This document shows positions 1-3,000 of a DNA stretch of 13,223 bases, in pieces. This DNA comes from a virus. Its lineage: Duplodnaviria > Heunggongvirae > Uroviricota > Caudoviricetes. Each line of letters starts with the position of its first letter. The stretch's first letter is position 1. The position numbers were made by a program. The stretch covers positions 1-13,223 of the IMG/VR virus record IMGVR_UViG_2529293223_000006. One strand, given 5' to 3'.

Positions 1-3000
1 ATTCACCGGCATAGCTGTCCAGTCGCGGCGGGTGAATCCTTCAAGCTGACGGTATTCACTGCCGGTAACGCGCCCTTTTTGTTTCACTACTTCCGGCAGT
101 TTTTTCATGGCATACCGGACAACATCATAGGAAGGCATCACCTCCAGCATGTATGGTTCGTCCGCATGGCGACGCTGCCATTCCGCGACAAAATCCTCGT
201 AGGCTTCTGACATGGGTCTGCCATTCGCCTGGCGATACTGCGCCAGAAATTCAGGCAGCCAGCTAATTTCTTCCGGTTTTATTTCGTCGCGCTTTCCTGG
301 TGCCAGTAACAGCAGTCGTTCTGCGGCATTCTGTGCTTTGTTAAACGCAGCTATCCAACGTTTGAGCGTAATTGCGCTCAGAGTTCGCTCTTTTCCTTTA
401 CGGGCATTAGCAGTAATGACCAAAGATTCCAGGCGTTCTTCCAGGTTACCCTGCGCTAACCTCGCCACAATAAAACGTATCGCGCTGGCACAACTGAATC
501 CCGGCTCCTGGCTAATTCGCAGAACTTCACAGACAAGAGCAATGCGTGCTTCTGCAACTTTACGTTGATTTTCCGTAAGCGCATTCAGACGTTCTTCTAC
601 CAGTTGTGGCGAACCGCGATATGCTTCGACCGCCTGAACGGCATCAGGGTTACGCGCCTTCCTGGTAACAACCTTTACCTCAGAAACGTTGTTCTCTCTA
701 GCCACTAACTGTTCCACGTATCGTTCACGTAGTGCCTGTTGAGTAATTTTCGGCAAGCAATCAATGTGATACTCAATGGCTTTTGTACCTTCACGGCGAC
801 GACTTACGTCACTACGTCCATGAGAAAAACGTTGTAATGCCTGACGGATGCCTTTTGTAGTTACAGGCATTCCAGGTACGCCGAGCAGTTCATTTACGGT
901 AACGTACGGCTGCATATCACGACGCCTTCCTGATAAATCCATCGTTACGATACCGACTGGGCCAGATGGTTTCTGGCGGGACACCTATAGCGTCAGAGAT
1001 AACGCGTTCGTATTTTTTGTTTGGCGTACGAACTACCGCTTTCAGTGAATCCTTCGCATAACCAGCATGGAGTGAAAGCTCCCGAAAGGAAGACCACCCA
1101 TTATCTTTGAGTGCCTGCTGAATCATCAGCGAAGGCCAATCGCGGCCAAGATCTTCTCTTTGTCTCATATTTCCTTTACCCTACAAAATTACCCGCGCGG
1201 ATATTCGCGTGGATATCCGAGTGAACAAAGCATAAGAACCAAAAGAACAAAAATCAAGGTATTTTCATTCTTTTCTTAGCTGTTTTGTTTATTTGTTTGA
1301 ATTCAAATAGATACAAAGAAAGGAACTTTTAATGAACAAAGAACCAAATGGTTCTTTTCCTGATGAGAAAAAAGAACCTTTAATTCAGCGGCTGTTTTCT
1401 CTGGTGGAGCGGTATCCATCTCGATCAGAAGCGGCCAGAGCTTGGGGAATTAACATATCAACCCTGAACAACTACTATAAACGCAGACACTTGAATCCAA
1501 TCCCCAGACCCAATCAGCTACAAAAAATTGCAGATAAAGAAGGTGTATCATTGGAGTGGTTAACAACTGGTCAAGGCCAAAAACCAAGTTTTGATGCGAA
1601 TAGCAGCAAAGAACAAAAGAACAAAAGAGCAAAAGAGCAAAAGGCTATGACTGGTGAGCCCCCATCAACCAAAGGGGCTAACATTGATTCAAGTTTATTA
1701 ACTCTCATTGAGATTTTGTCTGACGATGAAAAAAATGCACTTTTTGAAGTATTAGCAAGAAAAGGCGTAGAAACTTTATTACGCTTGTTAGATAAGGAAA
1801 CACAAGAATTGCTGCAACTGGAGGGCCGTAAACGCCTAGCTGCGTTGATGCTAGTCGATATGCCCGACGAGCAAGTCAGAGAGATTTTGGAAGAGATTGA
1901 AGCTAGTATTCTCTCAGAGAGTGTAAAAGCGAAGGTGGGCTAGTTCAATTAGCCCACAGCAAGTGGCTCTTAAAGACATTTAAAATGCTAAAATTGCAGT
2001 AACACGCAGTATCAAATATTTTTTCGTTTTTAGCTTTCTTTGCGATAGTAGTATCAAATCGCATGTTGTGCGCATAACACTGTTTTACGCCATAACTGTT
2101 TGTTTTATCCCATCAAATCCCGTTTAATCCACTTTTCTCCCGGATTTTTCACCAGTATCAAATAATTTACCTCGTCATAATCCCTGTAAAGCATCAGAAT
2201 GATGTCTGCATCCGCCTCTATTTCTCCGGAATTTTTCAGGTCTGAGTTCATGGGACGTTTATTGGGTCTGGACTCCACACCGCGGGAGAGCTGGCTCAGC
2301 GCAATCAACGGAAAACCACCGGATTTTGCCAGGCCTTTAAGCCCCTTTGAGATTTCACCCACGGCAAGGTCATGACGCCCCGTGGTTCGGGTTTTTATCA
2401 GCCCGAGATAATCAACCACCACCAGCGCCGTTTCCGGATGTTTAATCAGATGGTGTTTCGTTGTTGCGCATATCTCATCAATGGTCAGGTTCGCCTGGTC
2501 CACCATCCAGATATTGCGCCCGGTCATCCGCCCCACCCCTTGTGAGAAACGCGCCCAGTCTTCATCTTCAAAGTGAGCCACAGATTTCAGGCGTGATACT
2601 GGCATCCCTCCAGCCGCAGACACCATACGTTCACCAATCTGGATGTTCGCCATCTCCATGGTGAACAGAAGCACACCATGCCCCTGCTCAGTCACCTTGT
2701 CGATGATGTCCAGCGCAAGTTCGGTTTTCCCCATCGAAGGACGAGCCGCAATAAATACCAGGTCGCCGGGCTCCATGCCGCCTGTTTTTGCGTCCAGTTC
2801 ATCAATACCGGTCATCAACGTCCTGGATTTCTCCAGTCCCTGACTCCGGCATTCAACACGCTCAACCACCTCCGGAAGCACATCATCAATATGTACCGAC
2901 TGAATAACGCCCTTTTCCGTCGACAATGAGGCCATCATGTTCTGTGCATCCTTAAGAGCATCTTCAGCTGCTTCACAGGTATGCGCATCGCGTAATTTCT

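What the first reader, a model, noticed from the sequence alone, without database searches (positions are those of the whole stretch)
1..915. Long MuA-like ORF not present in the supplied ORF track
My manual minus-strand translation from the ATG at 913-915 to position 1 found no stop. The product resembles the MuA N-terminus, including the winged-helix GTKAIEY..CLP motif and a later DWTAMPVN segment. The track lists only short plus-strand ORFs here (212..568, 848..1048), which look like antisense shadows. The gene is probably missed because its stop lies outside the window.
Basis: seen in the sequence. Interest (0 to 1): 0.45.

Follow-up and report, generated by a model that had tools for sequence, protein, structure and literature searches.

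The report
Edge-cut Mu-like phage transposase gene
The first 915 bases of the window hold the first 305 codons of the transposase gene of a Mu-like prophage in a Shigella chromosome; the window edge cuts the gene, and it is a real but ordinary, already-catalogued gene.

Summary
Observation confirmed. The reverse complement of 1-915 is an unbroken 305-codon frame from ATG 915-913. It has a Shine-Dalgarno sequence and starts 1 nt after the stop of the upstream ner-like gene.

It is the N-terminal DNA-binding third of a 698-aa transposase. Identical copies elsewhere carry the full gene. Evidence: PHROG 310 'transposase' (E=2e-68), Pfam Mu DNA-binding domain, and a predicted fold whose best matches are MuA subdomains I-alpha, I-beta and I-gamma. 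The catalytic residues (D311, D377, E417) lie just beyond the window edge.

The context is the classic Mu left end:
- transposase A (915..1, -)
- ner-like gene (1168..917, -)
- c-repressor-like gene (1332..1943, +)
- attL with three ATTTGATAC repeats spaced as Mu's L1-L3
- terminus at 2179, inserted into a prophage DnaB-like helicase gene

The source is a Shigella boydii-type chromosome (IS600, ipaH, CssrB).

The protein is only 22% identical to Mu's own MuA. It belongs to a lineage with viable members (Yersinia phages vB_YpM_5/6).

Side observation: complete E. coli relatives have TA..TA termini and 4-bp target duplications. Mu has TG..CA termini and 5-bp duplications.

Verdict: real, correctly interpreted, ordinary, low interest.

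The parts
1..915 (-). Codons 1-305 of the 698-codon A (transposase) gene of a Mu-like prophage. The window edge cuts it 6 codons before the first catalytic Asp (D311).
   Evidence: Open frame. PHROG 310 E=2.4e-68. Pfam PF02316. Full-length 698-aa copies start with the same 305 aa. DDE positions come from alignment to MuA.
625..915 (-). Codons 1-97: a winged-helix I-alpha-like domain plus a disordered linker. It is part of a swapped 'immunity' module (625-1877) together with ner, the operators and c.
1..624 (-). Codons 98-305: I-beta-like and I-gamma-like helical DNA-binding subdomains (the inferred end-binding part) and the lead-in to the catalytic core.
925..931 (-). Shine-Dalgarno-like AGGAAGG, 9 nt upstream of the A start codon.
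   Evidence: Read from the sequence.
917..1168 (-). ner-like early-operon regulator (83 aa). Its stop codon is 1 nt from the A start.
   Evidence: Pfam HTH_35 E=7e-14. 36% identity to Mu Ner, E=6e-11. PHROG 769 E=2e-23.
1169..1331 (.). Divergent c/ner regulatory region with AGAACMAAA repeats. It is the candidate operator and transposition-enhancer region. That role is inferred.
   Evidence: AGAACMAAA at 1235, 1244 and 1340; 5 copies in the window against 0.34 expected. Repeats and palindromes listed. The position matches Mu's operator/IAS region (Mu annotation).
1332..1943 (+). c-repressor-like gene (203 aa), transcribed away from ner and A.
   Evidence: PHROG 3037 transcriptional repressor E=6e-50. 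The C-terminal half matches the Mu-repressor-type PHROG 7148. Weak similarity to the Mu c C-terminus. Weak Pfam Phage_CI_repr hit, 21.4 bits against a cutoff of 22.
1935..1957 (.). GC-rich hairpin spanning the c stop codon, a terminator-like structure.
   Evidence: Inverted repeat I15. Terminator-like hit, minus strand only.
1944..2179 (-). Prophage left end (attL). The terminus at 2179 reads 5'-TATGACGAGG from the outside inward.
   Evidence: 100% identity to L002, L003, L005 and L006 stops exactly at 2179, across three different insertion sites. E. coli helicase homology starts at 2180. The attL alignment shows the spacer conserved with Mu attL.
2155..2163 (-). End repeat 1 (ATTTGATAC), 17 nt from the terminus. 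Inferred transposase-binding site, L1-like.
   Evidence: 4 copies of the 10-mer in the window against 0.01 expected.
2051..2059 (-). End repeat 2, 121 nt from the terminus (L2-like).
   Evidence: Mu site cores lie at 20, 125 and 165 nt from its terminus.
2009..2017 (-). End repeat 3, 163 nt from the terminus (L3-like).
2180..2183 (.). First 4 bp of target DNA (ATCC). This is the predicted copy of the target-site duplication; the other copy is outside the window.
   Evidence: Inferred from the 4-bp duplications flanking four related E. coli prophages.

Best explanation
Window 1-915 (minus strand) is the 5' 44% of the A gene of a Mu-like transposable prophage. The gene encodes a 698-aa DDE transposase. 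The part in the window is the whole DNA-binding region:
- Residues 1-75 form a winged-helix I-alpha-like domain. By analogy with Mu, it should bind the enhancer/operator region between c and ner.
- Residues 75-93 form a flexible linker.
- Residues from about 95 to 290 form I-beta-like and I-gamma-like helical subdomains. These should bind the three ATTTGATAC repeats of the prophage end at 2009-2163.

The catalytic core (D311, D377, E417), the Mu-transpos_C domain and the neighbouring MuB-like ATPase gene lie beyond base 1.

The gene is co-transcribed with, and probably translationally coupled to, the ner-like gene. Expression is held off by the divergently transcribed c-like repressor.

Shown here: the ORF, its family, its fold, the gene order, the end at 2179, and the same prophage at several insertion sites. 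Inferred from Mu: which DNA each subdomain binds, and the regulation.

For: The full-length 698-aa gene sits in identical DNA. It has Pfam Mu-transpos_C (E=2e-18) and is followed by a MuB-like gene (Phage-MuB_C E=1e-23) and by Kil, Gam, GemA, Mor and lysozyme genes. The DDE residues align to MuA D269/D336/E392. Substitutions cluster at third codon positions of the minus frame.

ner-like and c-like genes are in Mu order. The three end repeats have Mu-like spacing. The same 2179 bp occurs at three different chromosomal sites: a dnaB-like gene, the norV region and a T6SS locus. Viable phage relatives exist: vB_YpM_5/6, 89% aa identity over the full length (PMC10434027).
Against: The window itself holds none of the catalytic residues, so activity cannot be judged from it. 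Identity to MuA proper is only 22%. No hit to the Mu-specific core or I-beta Pfam models was reported; only weak rve-type hits appeared. NCBIfam gives nothing for the fragment. DNA binding by the subdomains, and the roles of the repeats and the intergenic region, are inferences from Mu and were not tested. The right end of this particular prophage was not seen, so its completeness in the source genome is unproven.
Confidence: 0.93

Rival explanations
1. The ORF is a decayed remnant: a 5' fragment of a transposase gene in a degraded, immobile prophage, with no function today.
For: The surrounding region is a graveyard of mobile DNA: a truncated helicase gene, a truncated DnaC-like gene, an IS600 pair and a tape-measure fragment. 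The assemblies that carry this prophage break inside it, so no complete copy of this exact prophage was seen.
Against: L004 has the same insertion site and context as the window and carries an intact 698-aa A gene plus B, kil, gam, mor and lysis genes. The 2179 bp are 100% identical at three different insertion sites, which points to recent movement. The codon-position pattern shows selection on the frame.
Confidence: 0.05
2. The ORF encodes a Mu-repressor-type DNA-binding regulator rather than a transposase, because the I-alpha fold is shared with the Mu repressor.
Against: That match covers only about 60 residues. PHROG 310 transposase covers all 305 residues at E=2e-68. The ORF continues into a DDE core and Mu-transpos_C in identical copies. 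A separate repressor gene lies at 1332-1943.
Confidence: 0.01
3. The real genes here are the plus-strand ORFs 212..568 and 848..1048, and the long minus-strand frame is a chance open frame.
For: They are the only ORFs the mechanical track lists in this stretch.
Against: Neither has a Pfam hit at E<=1. The minus frame has strong family, fold and synteny support. Substitutions concentrate at third positions of the minus frame. The chance of a 305-codon open frame is about 4e-7 (own arithmetic).
Confidence: 0.01

Closest known systems
A transposase of Yersinia phages vB_YpM_5 / vB_YpM_6 (Muvirus; PMC10434027) and of Mu-like prophages in about 15 complete E. coli genomes, annotated 'Mu transposase C-terminal domain-containing protein'
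   Same: Full-length aa identity is 88-89%, and 99% over residues 98-305. The gene order c / ner / A / B is the same, as are the attL repeats and the terminus type TATGA(A/C)GAGG. The Yersinia phages are viable and lysogenise.
   Different: Residues 1-97, ner, the operators and c are replaced. Identity is 41-42% in A(1-97), and there is no megablast match for nt 625-1877. This is a different immunity type.
MuA of Escherichia phage Mu (AF083977; structures 1tns, 2ezk/2ezl, 2ezh/2ezi, 4fcy)
   Same: The domain order is the same: I-alpha, I-beta, I-gamma, DDE core, C-terminal domain. The DDE residues align and the subdomain folds match. ner is upstream and B downstream. Three end sites lie at about 17, 121 and 163 nt, against 20, 125 and 165 in Mu. 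The attL spacer sequence is conserved.
   Different: Identity is only 22%. The spacing from the second Asp to the Glu is 40 residues against 56 in MuA. The core scores only weakly, and to rve/IS481-type models. The end-repeat sequence is unrelated to Mu's (ATTTGATAC against YRCGAAA). Relatives have TA..TA termini and 4-bp duplications, against TG..CA and 5 bp in Mu. The repressor's N-terminal DNA-binding domain is CI-type and is not the I-alpha-like domain found in Mu Rep.
A transposases of Pseudomonas D3112-like phages (Casadabanvirus) and of Klebsiella, Mannheimia and Haemophilus Mu-like phages
   Same: These are the next-closest characterised phage proteins: Klebsiella ST405-OXA48phi1.1 43%, Mannheimia 3927AP2 38% (N-terminal part), D3112 31%, all over more than 90% of the length.
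   Different: Different hosts, siphovirus-type late regions in D3112, and no DNA-level similarity.
Mu/D108 immunity-region heterology (from my own knowledge of the Mu literature, not tested here)
   Same: In Mu versus D108 the non-homologous block covers c, ner and the 5' end of A. The window's block 625-1877 has the same extent relative to its relatives.
   Different: This is a different lineage, and the block here was not tested functionally.

Membership tests
Mu-type transposable-phage A transposase (broad family, PHROG 310) | Whole-fragment profile match to the phage transposase family | tested here: met
   PHROG 310: E=2.4e-68, residues 1-305 against profile positions 6-276 of 696.
Mu-type transposable-phage A transposase (broad family, PHROG 310) | N-terminal winged-helix Mu DNA-binding domain (I-alpha, Pfam PF02316) | tested here: met
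   31.9 bits against a gathering score of 23.3, residues 9-118. phmmer to 1tns E=0.008. Foldseek hit to 1tns.
Mu-type transposable-phage A transposase (broad family, PHROG 310) | I-beta and I-gamma end-binding helical subdomains | tested here: met
Mu-type transposable-phage A transposase (broad family, PHROG 310) | DDE catalytic triad | tested here: met
   The triad is not in the window. In the 698-aa protein from L004, which starts with the window's 305 aa, D311/D377/E417 align with MuA D269/D336/E392.
Mu-type transposable-phage A transposase (broad family, PHROG 310) | Mu-transpos_C domain (PF09299) and an adjacent MuB-like ATPase gene | tested here: met
   Both lie outside the window, in L004. 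PF09299 E=2e-18 at residues 535-595. The next gene has Phage-MuB_C E=1.2e-23 and AAA_22.
Mu-type transposable-phage A transposase (broad family, PHROG 310) | Position in a left-end early region: divergent repressor, ner, A, with repeated sites at the element end | tested here: met
   c and ner; end at 2179; three repeats with Mu-like spacing. Binding itself was not tested.
MuA proper (ortholog of phage Mu / D108 / SfMu transposase) | Close sequence similarity to MuA, including the Mu-specific catalytic-core and I-beta Pfam models | tested here: not met
   22% identity. Pfam reports only weak rve-type hits for the core and none for I-beta at E<=0.01. No record under an organism name starting 'Escherichia' or 'Shigella' appears among the counts shown for tblastn hits at 1e-5.
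MuA proper (ortholog of phage Mu / D108 / SfMu transposase) | TG..CA termini and 5-bp target-site duplication | tested here: not met
   The window's left terminus is 5'-TA. Four complete E. coli relatives have 5'-TAT..TTTA-3' termini and 4-bp duplications (TAAG, GTGA, AGCC, CGAA). The empty mscM site confirms TAAG. The right end of the window's own prophage was not available.
Active (non-defective) transposable prophage | Complete genome with both ends; inducible | not testable with these tools
   Only up to about 30 kb of this exact prophage was seen, because contigs break inside it. Related complete prophages of 36-37 kb exist in E. coli.

The most novel reading that the evidence does not exclude
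This transposase may represent an enterobacterial Mu-like lineage (Shigella, E. coli, Yersinia phages vB_YpM_5/6) that differs mechanistically from Mu. Its transferred strands would end in TA-3' rather than CA-3', and its target cuts would be staggered by 4 bp rather than 5 bp. Its end-binding sites are unrelated in sequence (ATTTGATAC), its Asp-to-Glu spacing is shorter (40 residues), and its repressor no longer shares the I-alpha-type DNA-binding domain with the transposase. The one review-like source I could read (PMC8705779, 2021) states that TG-CA ends are conserved in all Mu-like and B3-like phages described so far, and it reports TA-TA ends as new in Leptospira, with 6-bp duplications. 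The enterobacterial TA..TA / 4-bp combination may therefore be undescribed. The sequence facts are solid for the relatives. What is uncertain is whether this is already in the literature, and whether it holds for the window's own copy.
Probability: 0.35. Interest if true: 0.4.

Novelty: already known. Interest (0 to 1): 0.15.

Why it matters
For the scan, this shows a blind spot in the ORF track. ORFs that run off a window edge are dropped, so antisense 'shadow' ORFs are all that appears there.

Biologically, it marks the left end of a recently mobile Mu-like prophage in a Shigella chromosome. The prophage has inserted into an older ipaH-bearing prophage remnant. This is routine for Shigella genome plasticity and adds no new kind of system.

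The only point that might interest transposition specialists is the side observation that this lineage uses TA..TA ends and makes 4-bp duplications. If confirmed, it would be a natural variant for studying how a Mu-type transpososome sets its end recognition and target stagger.

Tried and rejected
- **NCBIfam on the 305-aa fragment.** No family matched. The full-length protein gave only sub-threshold IS481/ISNCY hits.
- **Megablast against phages.** Only two Yersinia phages matched, and only outside nt 625-1877. E. coli complete genomes have no copy covering 80% or more of 1-2179.
- **Does the repressor share its DNA-binding domain with the A protein, as in Mu?** No similarity was found.
- **The sigma-70 promoter scan of 850-2250.** It found no more sites than shuffled sequence and none in the c-ner intergenic region, so promoters remain unassigned.
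- **The fourth ATTTGATACT copy at 12435-12444.** I checked it as a possible second Mu-type end. It lies inside a methyltransferase ORF with no end-like context, so I rejected it as chance.
- **5-bp and 6-bp target duplications for the E. coli relatives.** No register gives them; only 4 bp fits all four sites. L014 has no duplication because different genes flank its two ends, so it was left out.
- **Literature searches for a 4-bp duplication or TA ends in enterobacterial Mu-like phages.** Nothing was found. PMC5977238 was uninformative.
- **The right end of the window's own prophage.** It could not be retrieved, because every contig that carries this prophage breaks inside it.

Full report
**1. 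The observation.**

The reverse complement of window 1-915 translates into 305 codons without a stop, beginning MQPYVTVNELLGVPGMPVTTKG... at the ATG at 915-913. By simple arithmetic, a random 305-codon frame stays open with probability about 4e-7.

The mechanical ORF list shows only 212..568(+) and 848..1048(+) in this stretch. By its own description it omits ORFs that run off an end of the source, which explains why the long frame was missing. Neither plus-strand ORF matches any Pfam family even at E<=1. Differences from four relatives fall on codon positions 1/2/3 of the minus frame as about 39/26/72, so the minus frame is the one under selection.

On the minus strand, AGGAAGG (931-925) lies 9 nt upstream of the ATG. 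The stop codon of the upstream gene (919-917) is 1 nt from it. This layout is typical of translational coupling.

**2. What the ORF is.**

Sequence evidence for the 305 residues:
- PHROG 310, 'transposase': E=2.4e-68 across all 305 residues (profile positions 6-276 of 696).
- Pfam Mu DNA-binding domain PF02316: 31.9 bits against a cutoff of 23.3, residues 9-118.
- The solved MuA I-alpha domain 1tns: residues 1-65.

Structural evidence comes from an AlphaFold2 model built on 28 homologs. It has mean pLDDT 80, with a disordered linker at residues 75-93.
- Foldseek's three best PDB hits are the Mu transpososome 4fcy (chains A and B) and 1tns.

The window fragment is therefore the complete three-part DNA-binding region of a Mu-type transposase.

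**3. The rest of the gene.**

An exact-protein look-up with the neighbouring repressor retrieved contigs carrying the same element. Window 1-2179 is 100% identical to L002, L003, L005 and L006, and window 1-9760 is 99.5% identical to L004. In these loci the gene is 698 codons long and begins with exactly the window's 305 residues.

The full protein has Pfam Mu-transpos_C (E=2e-18, residues 535-595) and weak rve-type core hits. It aligns end to end with phage Mu's MuA at 22% identity (E=4e-11). In that alignment D311, D377 and E417 fall on MuA D269, D336 and E392. The window stops at N305, six residues before the first catalytic Asp.

Downstream lie a MuB-like ATPase gene (Phage-MuB_C E=1e-23) and Kil, Gam, GemA, Mor and lysozyme genes.

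**4. Surroundings in the window.**

Next to A lies an 83-aa ner-like gene (1168..917, minus). It has Pfam HTH_35 (E=7e-14) and is 36% identical to Mu Ner.

Across a 163-bp divergent region (1169-1331) lies a 203-aa repressor gene (1332..1943, plus). It matches PHROG 3037 at E=6e-50. Its C-terminal half resembles the Mu repressor family, but its N-terminal helix-turn-helix is CI-type. It shows no similarity to the A protein's N-terminus. The divergent region carries AGAACMAAA repeats.

The prophage ends at 2179:
- Identity to the other insertion sites stops exactly there.
- Homology to an E. coli prophage 'replicative DNA helicase' begins at 2180.

The last 236 bp hold three ATTTGATAC repeats, 17, 121 and 163 nt from the terminus. 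The 10-mer occurs 4 times in the window against 0.01 expected. Mu's L1-L3 cores lie at 20, 125 and 165 nt. The spacer between the first and second repeats is recognisably conserved with Mu attL (CCGGGAG..GGATTA..CGGGAT.TGATGGGAT).

The insertion removed the last 75 codons of a 463-codon DnaB-like helicase gene of a lambdoid prophage remnant.

The same prophage sits at three unrelated sites in different assemblies: the helicase gene, the norV region and a type VI secretion locus. It has therefore moved recently.

**5. Source and relatives.**

Several features point to a Shigella boydii-type chromosome as the source:
- The chimeric helicase protein is EGI97735.1 and the IpaH protein is EGI97745.1, both of Shigella boydii (5216-82).
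- The best protein hit for the fragment is 'transposase, partial [Shigella sonnei]' at 100% identity.
- The window also carries IS600, an ipaH gene and the Rfam Shigella sRNA CssrB.

The closest named relatives are the viable Mu-like Yersinia phages vB_YpM_5/6, at 89% full-length aa identity (PMC10434027), and Mu-like prophages in about 15 of 5,426 complete E. coli genomes. Next come a Klebsiella phage (43%), a Mannheimia phage (38%, N-terminal part), Pseudomonas D3112-like phages (about 31%) and RcapMu (26%).

In the count by organism name shown for the tblastn of the 305 aa at 1e-5, no record starts with 'Escherichia' or 'Shigella'.

**6. Mosaic structure.**

Against the E. coli and Yersinia relatives, residues 98-305 are 99% identical but residues 1-97 only 41-42%. 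At the DNA level, nt 625-1877 find no megablast match in vB_YpM_5, while 1-624 (97%) and 1878-2179 (86%) do. That unmatched block holds A codons 1-97, ner, the intergenic region and c.

As I recall from the Mu literature (not tested here), this is the same pattern as the classical Mu/D108 immunity heterology. It fits the view that the I-alpha domain recognises immunity-specific operator/enhancer DNA, while I-beta and I-gamma recognise the conserved ends.

**7. Mechanism: shown and inferred.**

Shown:
- the gene, its family and its fold
- the DDE residues in the full-length copy
- the gene order
- the end and its repeats
- multiple insertion sites

Inferred from Mu:
- I-alpha binds the c-ner region.
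- I-beta and I-gamma bind the ATTTGATAC repeats.
- The core nicks the 3' ends and joins them to target DNA delivered by the B ATPase.
- The c-like repressor keeps the early operon off.

**8. A deviation from Mu, seen in passing.**

The window's left terminus reads 5'-TATGACGAGG, not 5'-TG. Four complete E. coli relatives (L009, L012, L013, L015; 36.1-37.3 kb) share these features:
- Their gene content is Mu-like overall; an invertase gene is annotated in three of the four, and com and mom in most.
- All have termini 5'-TAT(A/G)(A/G)AGAGG...GCGCGCTTTA-3'.
- All are flanked by 4-bp direct repeats: TAAG, GTGA, AGCC and CGAA.
- An uninterrupted mscM gene shows a single TAAG at the empty site.
- No 5-bp or 6-bp register fits.

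A 2021 paper states that TG-CA ends are conserved in all Mu-like and B3-like phages described so far, and reports TA-TA ends as new in Leptospira prophages with 6-bp duplications (PMC8705779). My searches found no description of the enterobacterial case. The library is incomplete, so novelty is uncertain. The right end of the window's own copy was not available.

**9. Verdict.**

The gene is the 5' part of a Mu-type prophage transposase gene cut by the window edge. Identical protein sequences are already deposited and named as transposase. This is an ordinary result of low interest, with one modestly interesting side lead: TA..TA ends and a 4-bp target duplication in this lineage.

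Noticed in passing
window 2105-3346 (junction at 2179/2180): The Mu-like prophage is inserted inside the DnaB-like replicative helicase gene of an older lambdoid prophage remnant. The 413-aa ORF is a chimera: about 389 helicase codons plus about 24 codons read from the Mu-type end. The intact homolog in E. coli VL46 is 463 aa. The chimera is deposited as EGI97735.1 of Shigella boydii 5216-82.
   Followed up: yes
window 3576-4836 and 6159-7419: Two 1261-bp IS600 copies (IS3 family) lie in inverted orientation and are 100% identical. They flank a 1322-bp fragment of a phage tape-measure gene (ORF 4821..6152, PhageMin_Tail). The left copy truncates a DnaC-like 'ATP-binding protein' gene (3343..3624, minus). 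Whether the segment between them has been inverted was not examined.
   Followed up: partly
L009, L012, L013, L015 (E. coli relatives); window 2170-2183: This prophage lineage has 5'-TA...TA-3' termini and 4-bp target-site duplications, where Mu has TG...CA and 5 bp. All four complete relatives with matching flanks show this, and one empty site was checked. The window's own right end was not seen.
   Followed up: partly
window 625-1877: An 'immunity module' swap relative to vB_YpM_5 and the E. coli relatives. A codons 1-97, ner, the operators and c are replaced (41-42% aa identity in A 1-97), while A codons 98-305 are 99% identical. The extent is the same as in the Mu/D108 heterology.
   Followed up: yes
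window 1332-1943, with repeats at 1608-1642 and 1235-1252: The repressor pairs a CI-type N-terminal helix-turn-helix with a Mu-repressor-like C-terminal half. Unlike Mu, it does not share its DNA-binding domain with the transposase. Inside the gene, an 8-bp tandem repeat (AAAGAACA / AAAGAGCA) encodes a KEQK-rich linker. It contains the same AGAACMAAA motif seen twice in the c-ner intergenic region.
   Followed up: partly
window 2105-2143 (37-75 nt from the prophage terminus): The spacer between end repeats 1 and 2 is conserved at the DNA level with phage Mu attL (CCGGGAG..GGATTA..CGGGAT.TGATGGGAT), although the transposase-binding repeats themselves are unrelated. As I recall, Mu's packaging site lies in this part of attL; that was not tested.
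   Followed up: no
window 9939-11582 (minus), 11677-11856 (plus), 12613-12816 (plus), 12975-13223 (minus): This stretch holds an IpaH-type NEL E3 ubiquitin ligase effector gene (IpaHe, EGI97745.1), the Rfam Shigella sRNA CssrB (228 bits), an Rfam IS009 match (128 bits) and a DinI-like gene. The ORF listing reports the DinI-like ORF as an 82-aa ORF whose ATG is the window's last three bases, so its start context is not visible. It looks like an ipaH-bearing prophage remnant.
   Followed up: no
window 9760 onward, compared with L004 from 18429 onward: The window and the otherwise collinear assembly GCA_002968245.1 (L004) diverge after the DUF4376 tail-fibre-assembly gene. L004 continues to smpB, and the window continues to ipaH. 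This is a strain-specific rearrangement or deletion at the edge of the old prophage.
   Followed up: no
window 12435-12444: A fourth exact copy of the end-repeat 10-mer (ATTTGATACT on the plus strand) lies inside the methyltransferase ORF 11865..12533. No terminus-like or second repeat lies nearby, so I judged it chance.
   Followed up: yes
L001 4653-4732 (Yersinia phage vB_YpM_5 record): In the 'circular' phage record, the right end (...GCGCGCTTTA) and the left end (TATGAAGAGG...) are separated by 80 bp of unrelated DNA. This is probably packaged host flank carried into the assembly, as expected for Mu-type headful packaging.
   Followed up: no
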